Shown piece after piece: positions 19,166-40,979 of a stretch of 64,000 bases of DNA. Position 1 is the stretch's first letter; each line of letters begins with the position of its first letter. The translations under genes were made by a program, and so were the position numbers. Source of the stretch: a virus (taxonomy: Duplodnaviria > Caudoviricetes); IMG/VR virus record IMGVR_UViG_3300028048_000040, positions 278,329 through 342,328 of that record; one strand, written 5' to 3'. The notes beneath the pieces were generated by a model. The model was not told the DNA's origin. It ran no database searches and worked only from the letters and a program-made list of their open reading frames with translations.

Positions 19166-19897
19166 TTAAATAATATCTTCAAAGTATATATCTTTCATCT
19201 CATGTACAGATTCTGTTCTCTTATGAGTAATCTCATTATACCCATAGAATCCTTTATAATCTTCAAAGATTAGTATGCTCTTATTATCTAATTTAGATAA
19301 GATATCTTCTGCTAGTCTTTTATCTCTCTTATTGAGAATAGGAATGTGATTCTCTAGAGTATTAAATGGAGATTTAGAATCAGGAATATATTCACTATCC
19401 TTTTCTCTCTTTTCTTTTTTAAAATGCTCAAAAGATGTCATTGTATCTTGACCAGCAGAACTTATAGCTTTACTCATCTTATCTAGCTCTATTTCTTCTA
19501 ACATAGGATCATATTTAGCTTGATCAGGAACTAATAATTTATGACCAGTGAAAGCTTCATATATATAGTTTCTATCATGTACAGGTCTATCTTCATAATC
19601 TATGTTAGTTTCCTCCAATAGACTATCAAATATTTCATCTGCTTTAGGATTAAGAGAGTAAAATCCTGTAATATAATCTTCTCCTAATGTAGTAGCTACT
19701 GTATTCTTAATTACTTTACCTTTACCATCTATACTTAAAGAAGTACTATCCTTATCTAAAGATTTAGATACACTATAGTCTCCCCAACCACCACTTAAAT
19801 CTTTATCATTAGATAAAGAGTTTACTATCATATTACCTCTTCCTGTACCAGGACCTACCATAGGATTCATAGAGGCTAAACCCATTGCTTCATTCAT
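19166..19897 (-). CDS. Hypothetical protein
   Basis: 243-aa ORF with AAGGAGG SD. Confidence 0.7.
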   Translation of the reverse strand: MNEAMGLASMNPMVGPGTGRGNMIVNSLSNDKDLSGGWGDYSVSKSLDKDSTSLSIDGKGKVIKNTVATTLGEDYITGFYSLNPKADEIFDSLLEETNIDYEDRPVHDRNYIYEAFTGHKLLVPDQAKYDPMLEEIELDKMSKAISSAGQDTMTSFEHFKKEKREKDSEYIPDSKSPFNTLENHIPILNKRDKRLAEDILSKLDNKSILIFEDYKGFYGYNEITHKRTESVHEMKDIYFEDII

Positions 19898-19949
19898 TTT
19901 AAAACCTCCTTATACCAATTACATAAAAGTTTATCTAAGGAATAATGCT

Positions 19950-19983
19950 AAAAAAACACTGGCGGGATAAACCCACCAGTGTT
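19950..19983 (-). terminator. Terminator of the TpsB gene
   Basis: GC-rich stem with an A-run on its plus-strand 5' side. Confidence 0.75.
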
Positions 19984-20002: not shown

Positions 20003-21634
20003 TTACCAAGTTTTACCTAAGATAAACCACAGTCTTCCATTAGCTTTAGCTTCTTCAGACATTCCATCATAACCACCAATACGTCTAGCATAATCAAGAC
20101 GAGCAAACCAATTATTAGGAGCTTTATAGAATGCTCCTACACCCCATCCTAAGAGAGAAGTGTGTTCATTATCACTCTTGCGTAAGCGTACTTCACCACC
20201 ATCTAAATAGCAGCTAAGAGTCAATCCACTGACTGGTGTATACCAACGCAATTCCGCAGTTCCTAAAAATCCTTCATCACCAGAACATTCTCCCTGAGGA
20301 TATGCTCTTACACCTTGAGCACCACCTAAATAGAATCTTTCAGAACTATCTAGATTCTTGCTTGCTAATTGACCCTGTGCTTTAATCAGAATATCAGAGC
20401 TATGACCTAAAGACTGAATAAATGTAAAATCTGCATTTCCTTTAGTAAATCCACCAGAGAAATGGTTAACACTATCCATTAATTCTGCATCTGCTGAATC
20501 GGTTCCCATAACACCATGAGTTAATATCACATTATAACAGAATGATGATTTCTGATGTTGGTTTATAGAACCAGATAATCCTATATATCCAGAATGGGAA
20601 TGTCGGTCACTATCCCAATTTGGACTTGTGATACTATCTTCCAAAGATCTATAATTATATCCATACAAAATATCTAAATTTTTCTTAGAAGTTTTATAGA
20701 TAGGAGTTTTACCATATACAGATATAGTATTTGCTTTACCCTCCATACCAACAGATGCTAAATATGAATCCAAATCATAATTCATATGGCTAAGACCAAT
20801 ACCAATAGTAGAACTGCTTCTTCCAACATTCATCTCATAAGACATATAATAGTTCTGCATGAGTTTATTGGAAATAGAAGTTCCTATTCTAAGTAAATCC
20901 CCCTTATGACTGATATTGTTTATAGTTTCTTGAGCAGCATACTGATATCTACCAGAATACTTGCTTCCATAGTTACTTACATAAGCAATACCTTCATGCT
21001 TTTTATGGTCTCTTATGTTTATAACAATATCACTAGTACCTTTATCAGTACCAGGAGATAGAACAGTAGATGCTTTTACTCCAGGAAGATTATTTAGATT
21101 ATGAATAGTAGTTTCCAAAGAAGTTGTTTTTATAATATCTCCAGAATGAAGACCTTTTGAAATACGTTCAGCTACATCATTATCAAGTTTAGACTCATTG
21201 TTTAATGTTATATTACCATATCTACCTGGAAGAATTGCAATCTTTATAGTAGAATGAATTATTTCTTGCTCAGGTACATATACCATAGCAGCAGGATATC
21301 CATTGTTACGAAGATATAGTGACATCTTCTTAGTCATTTCATTAAAATTATTTAAAGTGACAGTTTTCTTAACGTAAGTCTGAGCTATTTCTAATAACTT
21401 TTCTTCATTGAAAGATAAACCACCTTTATCAACCAATTCCACTTTATGAAGATAGAAACTAGGTGTCTCTTTAGATTCATGGGTATTAATAATTTCCCCA
21501 TTATTAATAACAGGTGTCTCTTTAGATGATGGTACATTTACCACCGGATCCTTTAATGCTGTTGCAGCATTACACTCTAATGGTGTCAATAATATTAACG
21601 TAGTGATAGCTGCCTTTGAAAGTTGTTTCTTCAT
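20003..21634 (-). CDS. TpsB/ShlB/FhaC/HecB-family outer-membrane transporter (Omp85 superfamily)
   Basis: Signal peptide, POTRA-like segments (YLRNNGYPAA.VYVPEQEI; LNNLPGV), SNYGSKYSG, LDSSERFYLGGAQGVRAY loop-6 motif, terminal aromatic residue (GKTW). Confidence 0.92.
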   Translation of the reverse strand: MKKQLSKAAITTLILLTPLECNAATALKDPVVNVPSSKETPVINNGEIINTHESKETPSFYLHKVELVDKGGLSFNEEKLLEIAQTYVKKTVTLNNFNEMTKKMSLYLRNNGYPAAMVYVPEQEIIHSTIKIAILPGRYGNITLNNESKLDNDVAERISKGLHSGDIIKTTSLETTIHNLNNLPGVKASTVLSPGTDKGTSDIVINIRDHKKHEGIAYVSNYGSKYSGRYQYAAQETINNISHKGDLLRIGTSISNKLMQNYYMSYEMNVGRSSSTIGIGLSHMNYDLDSYLASVGMEGKANTISVYGKTPIYKTSKKNLDILYGYNYRSLEDSITSPNWDSDRHSHSGYIGLSGSINQHQKSSFCYNVILTHGVMGTDSADAELMDSVNHFSGGFTKGNADFTFIQSLGHSSDILIKAQGQLASKNLDSSERFYLGGAQGVRAYPQGECSGDEGFLGTAELRWYTPVSGLTLSCYLDGGEVRLRKSDNEHTSLLGWGVGAFYKAPNNWFARLDYARRIGGYDGMSEEAKANGRLWFILGKTW

Positions 21635-21760
21635 TTCTCAAATACCTCTCCTTAAATTAAATAAATTAGTTATAGTGTCATTTGGTATATCGAAGTTTAA
21701 TCGATATCTCCTCAATACACTATCATTAAAATAGTATATCTCTAAAAAAATTTTTAATAA

Positions 21761-21790
21761 AAAGAAGAGGAGATAATTCTCCTCTTCTTT
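21761..21790 (-). terminator. Intrinsic terminator
   Basis: AAAGAAGAGGAGA/TCTCCTCTTCTTT stem. Confidence 0.75.
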
Positions 21791-21793
21791 GAC

Positions 21794-22036
21794 TTAAGCT
21801 ATTTTTGCTATTTGATGTTTGCTTAAGTCGGATAGATTGATTTCCATACTAATTGGAGTATGGCTCATCTTTGTCTTGAGCTCCCCTAGCTCTGAAGTCA
21901 TTAAACTGATCTCTTCTGATAATCCCCTAATGGATTCTACTAGATTGATGTCTTGCCTTGATAAATTGTTCCCCATACAAATTACCTCATCTTTCTTTGG
22001 AATCTGTTTAAGTGAAATAATATATACCTCACTCAT
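21794..22036 (-). CDS. Small early hypothetical protein (coiled-coil; start possibly 21976)
   Basis: Lies between early-type promoter 22041-22056 and terminator 21761-21790. Confidence 0.55.
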   Translation of the reverse strand: MSEVYIISLKQIPKKDEVICMGNNLSRQDINLVESIRGLSEEISLMTSELGELKTKMSHTPISMEINLSDLSKHQIAKIA

Positions 22037-22268: not shown

Positions 22269-22700
22269 GTGGTGAAATTGCCTGTAACATTTGATGATGA
22301 AGCTAATGTACGAGATTATCTATTAGCTGTTAATGATATTAATAGACCTAAAGTAGTAGATATGAAGGATATAAAACCTAATAAATATAATTCTGCTATT
22401 ACTATGATTAGTAGACTTATATTGATTAGGAAGGGTACATATCCTGATCATCCTGATATGGGAATAGATATTGTAGGAAGATATAGATTTGCTTTTGAAG
22501 AAGAAGCTAAAACACTATCTAGAGAGATAGAAGAGCAGGCAAATAAATATCTTCCAGAATTTAGTCCTATTCAAGTTTATTGTGAATTGATTCAAGACAA
22601 TGAAAAGCATAAGATTAATATCCATATCATAATAAATGAAGTTGAGTATCTTTTAGTTTACAATATCTCTGATAATACATTAGAGGGATTATTAGAGTAG
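22269..22700 (+). CDS. Baseplate wedge protein, gp25/GPW-like
   Basis: LILIRKGTYPDHPDMGIDI..YLPE pattern; late-type promoter at 22244. Confidence 0.75.
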   Translation: MVKLPVTFDDEANVRDYLLAVNDINRPKVVDMKDIKPNKYNSAITMISRLILIRKGTYPDHPDMGIDIVGRYRFAFEEEAKTLSREIEEQANKYLPEFSPIQVYCELIQDNEKHKINIHIIINEVEYLLVYNISDNTLEGLLE

Positions 22701-38311: not shown

Positions 38312-39016
38312 ATGCTTTCAGATTTAATACATGAAGCATCTATACAAGTAGATCCTACTAGAAAAGGAAGAGAATTTAAAAATATTCTTTGTTCTTTTGA
38401 GAGTCTATTTGATATAGACATTGGTTGCATTGCTTATATCTTGATTTCTTTAAAAGATAGTAAGTATATAAAACCAGAAGCATACAACTATACTCCTTTA
38501 TTCGTTCAATACAAATTAGTACATAGAGATACTCTTAACCCATTATCTATCATCTTCAAAGATGAATATAAGGACCAAATAGATAATCTGTATATTGAAC
38601 TATTAGAAAAGAAGAGAGAAGATATAATAAAACTATCATATCAAACTTATCTAGCAGTTCTAGTAGATCAATTAAGGATTATGGGTGGTTATACTATTGA
38701 AGTAGAATGTGATTCAGAACTTGAAAAAGAAAAAGTATCTGAATTAGGTTTATCTCCAGTAGACTACCAAGAAAATTTAGATGAGTATTTTACTCTAATC
38801 TTAAGATCTCCAAAGGATTTAAAAGATAGATTACAGTTTACCGGCAAGACTGTATATTTATGGAATACCTCTATCAATTATTTTGATATGAAGAAAGGTG
38901 TAGAGAATGAAATACTCACAGATGAAATTATAGCTCTTATGGGACAAAAGAATGTGATAAAGATGATAGATCCTTATCAGTATACAGAAGAGCTTGATGA
39001 TAATAAGGAGGATTAA
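38312..39016 (+). CDS. Hypothetical protein, possibly HAD-fold-like
   Basis: NILCSFESLFDIDIG resembles a degenerate HAD motif I. Confidence 0.4.
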   Translation: MLSDLIHEASIQVDPTRKGREFKNILCSFESLFDIDIGCIAYILISLKDSKYIKPEAYNYTPLFVQYKLVHRDTLNPLSIIFKDEYKDQIDNLYIELLEKKREDIIKLSYQTYLAVLVDQLRIMGGYTIEVECDSELEKEKVSELGLSPVDYQENLDEYFTLILRSPKDLKDRLQFTGKTVYLWNTSINYFDMKKGVENEILTDEIIALMGQKNVIKMIDPYQYTEELDDNKED

Positions 39017-40979
39017 CAACATGGCTTTTAATCTAGTAACTAATGTAGTAGATGAAACGCAATTAAGAAAAGCTCAGTTAAGAGCTCTAAAACTATTTGC
39101 AGATACTGTTAAAGGTACTTATGGTCCTATGGGTGAGTATACTGCTTATAGTATGCAAGATCCTAACAATAAACTTAAAGCTATTGTGTCTTATTATACT
39201 AAAGATGGTTTTACTGTATTGAAACATGTAGATACGGATAAACCAATTGAATCTCTTTTAAGAGATGATATCCGCACTATCTGTACTCATGTTATTAAGA
39301 CTATTGGTGATGGTACTACATCTGCTACAATGCTTTCTTATTATATCTTTAAAGGACTTCTTGAACTTCAGTACAAGAGAAAGCTTCCTAAGAGACGTAT
39401 TATAAAAGCATTCAAAGAGATTATCAAAGAAGGTATTTCTGAGATTGAATCCAAAGCAAGAGAATGCACAGTTGATGATATCTATAATATTGCTTATACT
39501 TCTCTTAATGGTAATGAAGAGATGGCAAATATCATCAAAGGTATCTATGAAGAAAGTGGCATGGATGTATTTATTGATGTAAGTGCATCTAATACTAAAG
39601 ATACTATTGTTAAGACTTATAACTCTCTTGTATATGAGGCAGGTTATATTGATTCTTGCTTTATCAATAATGAACAGGATAATACTGTAGATTACCATAA
39701 TCCACATATCTATGTATTTGAATCCCCTATTGATACTCCAGATATGATCAATACTCTTAAACTTATCTTTACTAAAGAGATTACAGAACCAATTCAACAA
39801 TATCAAAAATTGATAGCTAAAGGTAAACAGCCTGATCAACCTCTTTCTCCAGTATTGGTAATCTGTCCTCATATTTCTAGAGATGCTAATAGCTTTATTG
39901 ATCAACTCATTGTAGAGTTTACCAATATGAAGATGGCTCAGCGTCCTCAATTCTGTATTGTATCTAATATTGATAACGATAATGGTTATCTCTTAGATAT
40001 TATGAAACTTACAGAAGCCAAGTTCATCAAGAAGTATATTGATAAAGAATCTTATGAGATTGATAAGAATATTGGTCTAGCTCCTAATGAAATGAATATT
40101 AGAACATTTGCAGGTACTGCTGAACGTATAGTGGTAGATGCTCTTACTACTAAGATTATCAATCCAAAACAGATGTATGATGAGAATGGTGAGTATACTG
40201 AGTTCTATACTAACTATATTAAACAGTTAGAAGATCTTCTCAAAAAGTATGAAGAAACTAGAGAAGAAATAGTTAAGATTGGTAAGCTTAAGAGACGTAT
40301 CAATATTATTAAAGCAAATATGGTAGATCTATATGTAGGTGGTATTGGTACTACAGATAGAATGGCTTTGTCTGATTCTGTAGAAGATGCTGTTCTTAAC
40401 TGTCGTTCTGCTGCTGCTGATGGTGTTGGTTATGCAGCAAACTATGAAGGTTTAAGAGCTTTCAATAAGCTTCTTACTAAGTATGATGCTGAGTTTAAAG
40501 AAGCTGATGAAGCTTATGAACAAGATAAAGAAAATAATAATTTCATTAAAGAGAGAATTCGCACCTTCATCAATAAAGAAGTTGCTACAGTAATCACCAA
40601 ATCTTATATAGAACTCTGTTCACAGATTTATGTTCCCTATTGTGATGATGATCACAAAGATGCTCTTGGTATCGTTGGATTATCCTTAGCTAATAAAGAT
40701 CAATCTAAGAGAAAGCCATTCAATATTTTGACAGAGGAGTATGATGATCTTGTGCTCACTTCTATCAAAACTGAGCCAGCTATCCTAGAAGCTATCTCTC
40801 GTATCATTACTACTCTTTACAATACTAATCAGTTCCTGGTTCCTGATCCAAGATTCAATATCTACCAGATGGATAAAGATGATGAAGAGTATAAGAAACA
40901 GAAAATGCAATCAAAAGAATCAGCAAAAGAAAAAACCGTAGACGTTACTGAATTTATTGATGATGAATCTGAAAAGTAA
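38994..40979 (+). CDS. groEL: GroEL-like chaperonin (start probably 39021)
   Basis: TVKGTYGPMG, TKDGFTVLK, GDGTTSAT, VEDAV motifs; no GGM tail. Confidence 0.9.
   Translation: MMIIRRINNMAFNLVTNVVDETQLRKAQLRALKLFADTVKGTYGPMGEYTAYSMQDPNNKLKAIVSYYTKDGFTVLKHVDTDKPIESLLRDDIRTICTHVIKTIGDGTTSATMLSYYIFKGLLELQYKRKLPKRRIIKAFKEIIKEGISEIESKARECTVDDIYNIAYTSLNGNEEMANIIKGIYEESGMDVFIDVSASNTKDTIVKTYNSLVYEAGYIDSCFINNEQDNTVDYHNPHIYVFESPIDTPDMINTLKLIFTKEITEPIQQYQKLIAKGKQPDQPLSPVLVICPHISRDANSFIDQLIVEFTNMKMAQRPQFCIVSNIDNDNGYLLDIMKLTEAKFIKKYIDKESYEIDKNIGLAPNEMNIRTFAGTAERIVVDALTTKIINPKQMYDENGEYTEFYTNYIKQLEDLLKKYEETREEIVKIGKLKRRINIIKANMVDLYVGGIGTTDRMALSDSVEDAVLNCRSAAADGVGYAANYEGLRAFNKLLTKYDAEFKEADEAYEQDKENNNFIKERIRTFINKEVATVITKSYIELCSQIYVPYCDDDHKDALGIVGLSLANKDQSKRKPFNILTEEYDDLVLTSIKTEPAILEAISRIITTLYNTNQFLVPDPRFNIYQMDKDDEEYKKQKMQSKESAKEKTVDVTEFIDDESEK

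What the first reader, a model, noticed from the sequence alone, without database searches (positions are those of the whole stretch)
20003..21739. Stand-alone phage-encoded TpsB/Omp85 outer-membrane transporter under a phage early promoter
Seen: an intact 543-aa protein with signal peptide, POTRA-like domains, the VRAY loop-6 motif and a terminal Trp. It is flanked by terminators on both sides and preceded by the phage's own early-type motif (21724-21739), so it is wired into the phage programme. Established: TpsB proteins secrete large TpsA passengers and are normally encoded next to them. No TpsA is present in this window. Inference: the phage remodels the host outer membrane, for example by exporting a phage or host passenger, excluding superinfection or altering adhesion. 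It also implies a diderm host for an AR9-like phage, possibly Negativicutes given the strong Firmicutes-style SDs.
Basis: partly seen in the sequence, partly recalled or inferred. Interest (0 to 1): 0.8.

Follow-up and report, generated by a model that had tools for sequence, protein, structure and literature searches.

The report
Phage-encoded two-partner secretion system
A 342-kb rumen jumbo phage that probably infects Selenomonas carries an outer-membrane export pore and, 74 kb away in the same genome, a lectin-like cargo protein for it, so the virus appears to bring a complete surface-protein secretion system.

Summary
Window 20003-21634 (-) is an intact 543-aa ShlB/FhaC-type TpsB. It has a signal peptide, two POTRA domains, a 16-strand barrel, the L6 VRAY motif and a terminal Trp. 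It sits between two strong terminator hairpins, behind a phage promoter motif (ATATACTAT-N6-G) that closely matches the AR9 early consensus.

It is not an assembly chimera. The locus is syntenic in six or more independent assemblies, its composition matches the phage, and it is under purifying selection (dN/dS about 0.2).

"Stand-alone" is wrong at genome scale. The same phage encodes one TPS-domain exoprotein (823 aa, G000:C1:226073-228544), about 74 kb upstream and outside the window. A related 333-kb phage keeps the same spacing.

That TpsA is a shortened version of Selenomonas TpsAs. It consists of a TPS domain, a short beta-helix, a helical region, a C-type-lectin-like domain (EPN...WAD), a variable proline-rich stalk and a conserved C-terminal domain.

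The phage TpsB clade nests inside Selenomonas ruminantium TpsBs (62% identity to the nearest). This supports a diderm Negativicutes host.

The best reading is a phage-borne, unlinked type Vb secretion pair that displays a lectin-like protein on infected cells. Pairing, timing and biological role are inferred, not shown. I found no description of such a system in the papers searched.

The parts
20003..21634 (-). tpsB: 543-aa ShlB/FhaC-type outer-membrane transporter. Signal peptide is about res 1-23, linker 24-57, POTRA1 58-136, POTRA2 137-210 and the 16-strand barrel 211-543, with L6 VRAY at 442-445.
21645..21653 (-). Shine-Dalgarno AAGGAGAGG, 10 nt before the ATG
   Evidence: read. AAGGAG-type SDs dominate the phage's upstream regions.
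21724..21739 (-). Phage early-type promoter ATATACTAT-N6-G. The predicted start is the G at 21724, giving a leader of about 90 nt.
   Evidence: The AR9 early consensus is AAATATATATTAT-N6-G(+1) (PMC5312081).
21761..21790 (-). Terminator hairpin plus T-run that closes the upstream 80-aa gene and insulates tpsB
   Evidence: dG -19.9, z -5.3; conserved in three phages
19955..19983 (-). Terminator hairpin plus T7 directly after the tpsB stop codon
   Evidence: dG -22.4, z -6.1

Best explanation
The window's gene is the transporter half of a phage-encoded two-partner (type Vb) secretion system whose two genes are unlinked.

Shown:
- tpsB is an intact, constrained Omp85/TpsB gene that has been resident in a clade of 330-350-kb AR9-like rumen phages long enough to take on phage composition.
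- It descends from a Selenomonas ruminantium tpsB.
- The same phage genomes encode a single Sec-targeted TPS-domain exoprotein about 74 kb away. This is a phage-specific, shortened derivative of Selenomonas TpsAs that carries a C-type-lectin-like domain.

Inferred mechanism:
- Early in infection the virion-type RNA polymerase transcribes tpsB from the ATATACTAT-N6-G promoter.
- The protein crosses the inner membrane through Sec and is inserted into the Selenomonas outer membrane by the host BamA/TamA machinery.
- TpsA has no early motif but does have an AACA-N6-TA late-like element, so it is probably made later. It is exported by Sec, its TPS domain is recognised by the TpsB POTRA domains, and it is threaded through the barrel.
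- The lectin-like head then sits on a proline-rich stalk at the cell surface or is released.
- The likely purpose is to change what the infected cell binds or what can bind to it, for example by masking glycan receptors against superinfection, clumping infected cells with fresh hosts, or promoting adhesion. Which of these applies is unknown.
For: TpsB family and fold:
-.

TpsA in the same genome:
- PF05860 scores 88 bits in the genome search and 84 bits (2e-23) on the protein itself.
- It has a signal peptide and the LNRV and NPNGI motifs.

Conservation across phages:
- Both genes are kept in the related phage G001, at about 74 kb spacing once circular permutation is allowed for.
- The tpsB locus is syntenic in four further assemblies.

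Selection and composition:
- dN/dS is 0.18-0.23 for TpsB and 0.23 for TpsA. The barrel alone is 0.08-0.11.
- GC3 is 0.19 (TpsB) and 0.18 (TpsA), like the phage, against 0.48-0.57 in the Selenomonas homologues.

Origin:
- The phage TpsBs are monophyletic (SH-aLRT 100) and sister to the S. ruminantium WP_026765309 cluster.
- The phage TpsAs are monophyletic (98) among longer Selenomonas-type TpsAs.

Passenger domain:
- The family profile hits mannose-binding protein, conglutinin, SP-D and mincle over the EPN...WND core (best E 5e-5).
- EPNN and W-A-D are invariant in the phage family.

Promoter:
-.

Presence in an RNA library:
- 100%-identical short contigs inside tpsB occur in a bovine metatranscriptome. 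This is weak, because DNA carry-over is not excluded.

Host capacity:
- Negativicutes have BamA/TamA, Skp and working TpsA/TpsB pairs (PMC5491611).
Against: - The two genes are about 74 kb apart and are not co-transcribed, unlike nearly all known TPS pairs.
- They come from different host lineages. The Selenomonas TpsA most like the phage TpsA is paired with a TpsB only 26% identical to the phage TpsB. The closest cellular TpsB (62%) serves a different 1526-aa TpsA.
- Four smaller phage contigs (55-148 kb; CheckV completeness 52-100%) carry the TpsA homologue but no ShlB gene. The cargo can therefore exist without a phage transporter.
- No N-terminal plug helix is predicted in TpsB.
- The lectin-like domain lacks the canonical cysteines and has Ala in place of the WND Asn. 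Its fold could not be modelled (pLDDT about 25).
- The timing of tpsA transcription and any secretion are untested.
Confidence: 0.62

Rival explanations
1. The phage TpsB works on host cargo rather than the phage TpsA. It would keep up, hijack or block secretion of the S. ruminantium TpsA family whose own transporter is its closest relative, and the phage TpsA would use a host TpsB.
For: - The nearest cellular TpsB (62% identity) sits in a tpsA-tpsB operon with a 1526-aa YDG/MBG-type TpsA.
- The phage TpsA's TPS domain is about equally distant from both host TpsA families (34% and 37%).
- Smaller phages carry the TpsA with no TpsB.
Against: - Both phage genes are retained together under purifying selection, at fixed spacing, in two complete genomes.
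- The POTRA domains have diverged much more than the barrel since acquisition and within the phage clade. This fits retargeting away from the ancestral cargo.
- AR9-type phages strongly reduce host mRNA (PMC5312081). Host cargo supply would therefore fall during infection.
Confidence: 0.2
2. TpsB acts without a TPS cargo. It could serve as a pore or decoy in the outer membrane, a superinfection-exclusion factor, or a helper of outer-membrane disruption at lysis.
For: - It forms its own insulated transcription unit.
- No cargo gene is adjacent.
- Cargo-less or non-canonical TpsB modules exist in bacteria according to earlier unchecked notes from this scan.
Against: - All the cargo-handling features are conserved: two POTRA domains, the L6 Arg and the D478/G480 motif.
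- A TPS-domain protein is present in the same genome.
- An early-type promoter does not fit a role in lysis.
Confidence: 0.1
3. The gene is an artefact: bacterial DNA mis-joined to a phage contig, or a recently captured passenger gene that is now decaying.
For: It is clearly of bacterial origin. One divergent contig in the source sample may lack the cassette, though that match is weak and short.
Against: - The same neighbours flank it in G001 and in four other assemblies from different samples.
- Its composition and GC3 match the phage, not Selenomonas.
- A phage promoter and phage terminators are conserved around it.
- dN/dS is about 0.2 and the frames are intact in six phage variants.
Confidence: 0.02

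Closest known systems
Classical two-partner (type Vb) secretion: FhaC/FHA (Bordetella), HMW1B/HMW1 and HxuB/HxuA (Haemophilus), EtpB/EtpA (ETEC), CdiB/CdiA
   Same: TpsB has a signal peptide, two POTRA domains, a 16-strand barrel, the L6 VR(G/A)Y motif and a terminal aromatic residue. TpsA has a signal peptide and an N-terminal TPS beta-helix with NPNGI. The best fold matches are CdiB and FhaC for TpsB, and HMW1, EtpA and HxuA for TpsA.
   Different: - It is encoded by a virus.
- The two genes are about 74 kb apart in separate transcription units, probably of different temporal classes.
- TpsA is very short (823 aa, with about 300 aa of beta-helix).
- No plug helix is predicted in TpsB.
Selenomonas/Mitsuokella chromosomal TPS loci (S. 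ruminantium GCA_000424065.1 tpsA-tpsB; Selenomonas sp. 1646-aa TpsA P0226 with its 567-aa TpsB)
   Same: These are the direct evolutionary sources. TpsB is 62% identical to WP_026765309. TpsA shares the TPS domain (37%), the helical plus lectin-like region (40%) and the C-terminal domain (31%) with P0226.
   Different: - The host genes are adjacent and about 50% GC.
- The host TpsAs are 1100-1770 aa.
- The phage pair combines a TpsB from one host lineage with a TpsA from another.
Phage-encoded outer-membrane or surface proteins that alter the host surface (lambda Lom and Bor, phage PA-2 Lc porin, T5 Llp; Streptococcus mitis phage SM1 PblA/PblB adhesins). Recalled from my own knowledge.
   Same: A phage product is placed on the host surface to change adhesion or phage susceptibility.
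   Different: Those are single small barrels, lipoproteins or virion proteins. None is an Omp85-family translocator with its own secreted cargo.
C-type lectin domains (mannose-binding protein, SP-D, mincle)
   Same: The profile similarity covers the Ca/sugar-binding core, with an invariant EPN and W-x-D.
   Different: There are no cysteines. The WND Asn is Ala in the phage and the nearest Selenomonas proteins. The fold is not confirmed. The domain is embedded in a TpsA.
AR9/PBS1-type jumbo phages of Firmicutes
   Same: The phage has a split multisubunit RNAP (30-32% identity to Listeria LPJP1, Staphylococcus S6 and Bacillus Goe21). Its early promoter ATATA(C/T)TAT-N6-G resembles the AR9 AAATATATATTAT-N6-G.
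   Different: The host is a diderm Firmicute. The major head protein has no tblastn match in 50,697 GenBank phage records. No listed AR9-type phage carries a TPS system.

Membership tests
TpsB (Omp85 superfamily, ShlB/FhaC/HecB, type Vb transporter) | Pfam ShlB barrel and POTRA_2 above curated cut-offs | tested here: met
   PF03865 scores 79.7 bits (cut-off 22.7) and PF08479 scores 40 bits (cut-off 24).
TpsB (Omp85 superfamily, ShlB/FhaC/HecB, type Vb transporter) | Two periplasmic POTRA domains followed by a 16-strand beta-barrel | tested here: met
   The AF2 model has pLDDT 80 and pTM 0.74 and shows 16 strands. Foldseek's best hits are CdiB 6wim (1.7e-25) and FhaC 4qky (5.9e-25).
TpsB (Omp85 superfamily, ShlB/FhaC/HecB, type Vb transporter) | L6 loop VRGY/F tetrad with conserved Arg, and the (F/G)xDxG motif on the facing strand | tested here: met
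   VRAY lies at 442-445. R443, Y445, D478 and G480 are invariant in 40 homologues.
TpsB (Omp85 superfamily, ShlB/FhaC/HecB, type Vb transporter) | Sec signal peptide and C-terminal aromatic beta-signal | tested here: met
   The signal peptide is read from the sequence and has the highest 19-residue hydrophobicity window, at res 9. The terminal residue is W543.
TpsB (Omp85 superfamily, ShlB/FhaC/HecB, type Vb transporter) | N-terminal H1 plug helix inside the barrel (as in FhaC and CdiB) | tested here: inconclusive
   Residues 24-55 are Pro-rich, have pLDDT below 50 and no predicted helix.
TpsB (Omp85 superfamily, ShlB/FhaC/HecB, type Vb transporter) | Cognate TpsA gene adjacent in one operon | tested here: not met
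   The neighbours have no TPS domain and no signal peptides. The only TPS gene is about 74 kb away.
TpsB (Omp85 superfamily, ShlB/FhaC/HecB, type Vb transporter) | Exports a TPS-domain protein | not testable with these tools
   This needs a secretion assay.
TpsA exoprotein (P0122, G000:C1:226073-228544) | Signal peptide plus N-terminal TPS domain with the NPNG(I) motif and beta-helix fold | tested here: met
TpsA exoprotein (P0122, G000:C1:226073-228544) | Long beta-helical passenger (typically over 1500 aa) | tested here: not met
   The protein is 823 aa and the beta-helix ends near res 330. It is a condensed form of a 1646-aa Selenomonas TpsA.
C-type lectin-like domain (passenger res ~495-645) | Sequence-profile similarity to CTLDs, including the EPN and WND Ca/sugar motifs | tested here: inconclusive
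   A 20-sequence profile hits MBP 1hup at 5.2e-5, and about 45 of the top hits are C-type lectins. EPN is present, but WND reads WAD. Pfam Lectin_C is not hit. The Atlas lead scores only 0.87-0.88.
C-type lectin-like domain (passenger res ~495-645) | Conserved disulfide-forming cysteines of the canonical CTLD | tested here: not met
   Res 495-650 contain no Cys.
C-type lectin-like domain (passenger res ~495-645) | CTLD fold | tested here: inconclusive
   AF2 gave pLDDT of about 25 for res 438-700 with a 9-row alignment.
AR9/phiKZ-type jumbo phage | Phage multisubunit RNAP and an AT-rich early promoter with a start 6 nt downstream | tested here: met
   The RNAP subunit matches phrog_2986. The nearest relatives are AR9/PBS1-like phages. 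Motif statistics are, and the AR9 consensus is from PMC5312081. The transcription start itself is not measured.

The most novel reading that the evidence does not exclude
This would be the first virus-encoded Omp85-family translocator acting with its own virus-encoded cargo. A lytic AR9-like jumbo phage of a diderm Firmicute would install a type Vb secretion pore early in infection. It would then use the pore to coat the infected Selenomonas cell with a miniaturised, lectin-headed TpsA. Smaller rumen phages that carry only the TpsA would borrow the host pore. Phages would then reprogram host surface glycan-binding as part of infection, for exclusion of competitors or for cell-to-cell spread.
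Probability: 0.5. Interest if true: 0.78.

Novelty: new variant of a known kind. Interest (0 to 1): 0.68.

Why it matters
- Secretion systems of the outer membrane are treated as cellular property. A complete, constrained type Vb pair in a lytic-type jumbo phage would show that viruses can bring their own outer-membrane export route.
- It would add a new class of phage "surface-remodelling" genes.
- It gives a sequence-based host assignment (Selenomonas ruminantium, a major rumen bacterium) for an uncultured AR9-like phage lineage, and it extends that lineage to diderm Firmicutes.
- It offers a compact (823 aa) TpsA with a transporter from a different lineage. This is a natural experiment on TPS-POTRA specificity.
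- The lectin-like head points to a testable ligand.

Tried and rejected
- Complex prediction of the TpsB (56-543) with the TpsA TPS region (27-330) returned "no answer" (score 0.00). It says nothing for or against binding.
- The ten neighbours of tpsB had no meaningful Pfam or PHROG hit: one sub-threshold Pfam match and one PHROG of unknown function. None has a signal peptide. No adjacent cargo was found.
- A single-sequence scan of IMG/VR with TpsB found nothing. The alignment-based scan found only G001.
- tblastn of TpsA and of the major head protein against 50,697 GenBank phages gave no match.
- tblastn of TpsB gave only weak hits (21-25% identity) in unannotated faecal contigs and in very large "Acinetobacter phage MD-2021a" records. 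I did not examine these further.
- BFVD fold search with the TpsA model gave no convincing viral match.
- The phage-only profile of the lectin-like region gave no PDB or Pfam hit. Only the broader 20-sequence profile reached C-type lectins.
- The C-terminal domain (res 695-823) gave only insignificant lipocalin hits (E 0.05) and nothing usable in the Atlas. Its function is open. No immunity-like ORF follows tpsA, so I did not pursue a CDI-toxin reading.
- The helical region 335-500 had no PDB hit.
- Sigma-70-type promoter scanning around tpsB gave no excess over shuffles: 12 found against 13.9 expected.
- A k-mer search for a second (late) promoter class gave only SD-like words. AACA-N6-TA is only mildly orientation-biased (31 against 19), so the late class of tpsA is tentative.
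- Rfam and tRNA scans of the 475-nt ORF-free stretch after tpsA found nothing above threshold.
- I could not search the contigs of L012/L013 outside their IMG/VR parts.
- Literature searches for phage-encoded TPS/TpsB or Selenomonas jumbo phages found no description.
Full report
**What is at the coordinates**

Window 20003-21634 (-) is an uninterrupted 543-codon ORF. Pfam places it in ShlB/FhaC/HecB (PF03865, 3.4e-22) with a ShlB-type POTRA domain (PF08479, 3.5e-10). The nearest solved sequences are CdiB 6wil and 6wim.

An AlphaFold2 model built on 40 homologues (pLDDT 80, pTM 0.74) shows a signal-peptide helix, a disordered Pro-rich linker (res 24-55), two POTRA domains and 16 barrel strands. 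Foldseek ranks CdiB and FhaC first (about 1e-25), ahead of BamA and TamA.

The functional hallmarks are present and invariant across homologues: the L6 VRAY motif (R443, Y445), D478/G480 on the facing strand, and the terminal Trp. No plug helix is predicted. I leave that open.

**Transcription unit**

tpsB sits between two strong hairpin-plus-T-run terminators. One is at 21761-21790, after the upstream 80-aa gene, and the other is at 19955-19983, after the tpsB stop. Their z-scores against shuffles are -5.3 and -6.1.

At 21739-21724 lies ATATACTAT-N6-G, followed by a leader of about 90 nt and the SD AAGGAGAGG. Genome-wide, TATACTAT occurs 92 times, and 51 of these fall in the 9% of the genome that is intergenic. 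Thirty-seven lie within 150 nt upstream of a same-strand start, against 4 for the reverse complement. The hits share an extended consensus, AGTAAAC-N13-TATACTAT-N6-G.

The AR9 early (virion RNAP) consensus is AAATATATATTAT-N6-G(+1) (PMC5312081). Its early class is an inference by analogy. The motif and the upstream terminator are conserved upstream of tpsB in three phage variants.

**Is it really phage DNA?**

- The window is the last 64 kb of a 342,328-bp IMG/VR virus record that CheckV rates 100% complete.
- The window itself carries a phiKZ/AR9-type RNAP subunit, a major head protein, a GroEL-like chaperonin and a large terminase.
- The RNAP subunit is closest (30-32%) to AR9/PBS1-like Firmicutes jumbo phages: Listeria LPJP1, Staphylococcus S6 and PALS_2, and Bacillus Goe21.
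- The tpsB locus has the same neighbours in a second complete genome (G001, 332,775 bp; TpsB 80% identical) and in four assemblies from other samples.
- tpsB has GC 0.34 and GC3 0.19, like the phage. The Selenomonas homologues have GC3 of 0.48-0.57.
- Pairwise dN/dS is 0.18-0.23, within the range of the neighbouring phage genes. The barrel alone is 0.08-0.11.

**The missing partner exists**

A search of the whole phage genome with the TPS-domain model finds exactly one hit, at G000:C1:226073-228544 (+), about 74 kb upstream of tpsB and outside the window. It encodes an 823-aa protein with these features:

- a Sec signal peptide;
- a TPS domain (PF05860, 84 bits) with the LNRV and NPNGI motifs;
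- PDB sequence matches to EtpA, HxuA and HMW1;

It has its own upstream terminator and no early motif. It does have an AACA-N6-TA element like the AR9 late consensus, and the same arrangement precedes the RNAP gene and others. That motif is only weakly orientation-biased here, so a late class is tentative.

G001 has the orthologue (926 aa, with a longer proline stalk) at the same roughly 74-kb distance once circular permutation is allowed for. dN/dS for TpsA is 0.23, and every domain lies at 0.16-0.32.

**Anatomy and origin of the cargo**

Full-length relatives of the TpsA are confined to eight phage-type sequences. A profile of the passenger (res 335-650), searched against 1.8 billion representatives, finds the same module inside longer TpsAs of 1100-1770 aa. 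Two of these clusters carry names, Selenomonas sp. and Mitsuokella.

Against one of them (P0226, 1646 aa, in a bacterial context next to its own tpsB), the phage protein aligns in three blocks: TPS domain 37%, middle region 40% and C-terminal domain 31%. It is a condensed host-type TpsA. In a tree of the shared module, the eight phage sequences form one clade (SH-aLRT 98) nested among the bacterial ones.

No Pfam family covers the passenger in any relative. A 20-sequence alignment of the res 450-650 module shows the pattern W..A..A...YLATIT..LEN...WLGG...W.WVTGPEG...F..W...EPNN...W(N/D/A)D...E. Its profile hits mannose-binding proteins, conglutinin, SP-D and mincle in the PDB (best E 5e-5), and about 45 of the top hits are C-type lectins.

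In the phage family, E572-P573-N574-N575 and W596-A597-D598 are invariant. There are no cysteines, the WND Asn is Ala, and the fold could not be modelled. I therefore call the domain C-type-lectin-like, not a proven lectin.

After it come a proline-rich stalk of very variable length (about 30 to 400 aa among the phages) and a conserved 120-aa C-terminal domain with no recognisable relatives.

**Origin of the transporter and the host**

The closest cellular TpsB (62% identity) belongs to a cluster that includes S. ruminantium WP_026765309. It is encoded in isolate assembly GCA_000424065.1, directly after a 1526-aa tpsA.

In a 44-sequence tree the six phage TpsBs are monophyletic (SH-aLRT 100) on a long stem (0.42). 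They are sister to that cluster (97) and sit inside a ladder of Selenomonas sequences. Runs that hold the locus are mostly bovine gut metagenomes.

Negativicutes have BamA/TamA, Skp and expressed TpsA/TpsB pairs (PMC5491611), so the machinery needed to insert a phage TpsB exists in such hosts.

**Do the two phage genes work together?**

This is the main inference.

In favour:
- both genes are kept at fixed spacing in two complete genomes;
- there is only one TPS protein in the genome;
- all cargo-handling features of TpsB are conserved;
- both genes are under purifying selection.

Against:
- they are unlinked;
- they derive from different host TPS lineages, since the bacterial partner of the TpsA-like protein is only 26% identical to the phage TpsB;
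- four smaller phage contigs (55-148 kb; CheckV completeness 52-100%) have the TpsA without any ShlB gene, and there it follows tail-fibre-like genes.

One reading reconciles these facts. The mini-TpsA is the effector and circulates among rumen Selenomonas phages. The jumbo lineage transcribes with its own RNAPs and, by analogy with AR9, probably depresses host mRNA. It therefore added its own transporter and expresses it early.

The POTRA domains, which bind cargo, have diverged far more than the barrel, both since capture and within the phage clade. Between G000 and G001, POTRA1 is 59.5% identical and the barrel 90.7%. In the closest bacterial pairs (P0007, P0009 and P0010) the regions differ much less. 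This fits retargeting or an arms race but proves neither.

A bovine metatranscriptome contains 100%-identical short contigs inside tpsB at low depth, and a contig ten times deeper over the adjacent 80-aa gene. That is a hint of transcription, not proof.

**Verdict**

It is wrong on "stand-alone". I found no description of a phage-encoded TPS system or Omp85-family transporter in the papers searched, and no counterpart in the GenBank phages apart from weak hits I did not examine. I rate it a new variant of a known kind. The biological role (receptor masking, aggregation or adhesion) remains open.

Noticed in passing
window 21794-22036 (-): The 80-aa ORF just upstream of tpsB has its own TATATTAT-type motif. 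A contig covering 21808-22022 has depth 34 in a bovine metatranscriptome, about ten times the depth of the neighbouring pieces. This may be a highly expressed small early gene with no known family.
   Followed up: partly
window 19857-19898 and 22455-22505: In the probable source sample, a 19-kb contig at lower depth matches only these two short flanks (about 85% identity), with 292 other letters in between. This hints at a divergent co-occurring phage that lacks the tpsB and 80-aa cassette. The matches are weak and short.
   Followed up: no
window 21000-21460 (tpsB residues 58-210): The POTRA domains, POTRA1 above all, are hypervariable among the phage TpsBs. Between G000 and G001, POTRA1 is 59.5% identical and the barrel 90.7%. 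POTRA1 has dN 0.16-0.29 and raised dS, which suggests recombination or diversifying pressure on the cargo-binding part.
   Followed up: partly
L012/L013 (JGI 3300026549, 3300032007), L021-L024: Phage contigs of 55-148 kb (CheckV 52-100% complete) carry a TpsA homologue (46-50% identity) but no ShlB gene. In the two contigs whose gene context was read (L012, L013) it lies directly after tail-fibre-like genes with CBM_5_12 and Laminin_G_3 domains. One of the contigs is flagged as a provirus.
   Followed up: partly
whole genome G000; example at window 21724-21760: The early promoter appears bipartite: AGTAAAC-N13-TATACTAT-N6-G, with 37 oriented copies. The spacing is too short for a sigma-70 -35/-10 pair.
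   Followed up: partly
G000:C1:226073-228544 (TpsA residues ~645-690) and homologues: The proline-rich stalk (PxDPxP-type repeats) ranges from about 30 to about 400 residues among otherwise near-identical phage TpsAs. It is a length-variable spacer.
   Followed up: no
L003:10546-11021 (G000:C1:228545-229020): An ORF-free stretch of about 475 nt lies between the tpsA stop and the next early promoter. tRNA and Rfam scans found nothing above threshold.
   Followed up: partly
window 38994-40979 (+); L003:5242-7617 (+): The phage encodes a GroEL-like chaperonin (phrog_5725, 1.7e-54). It also encodes a GyrA-type topoisomerase subunit (PF00521, 8.9e-80), and this gene lies just upstream of tpsA.
   Followed up: no
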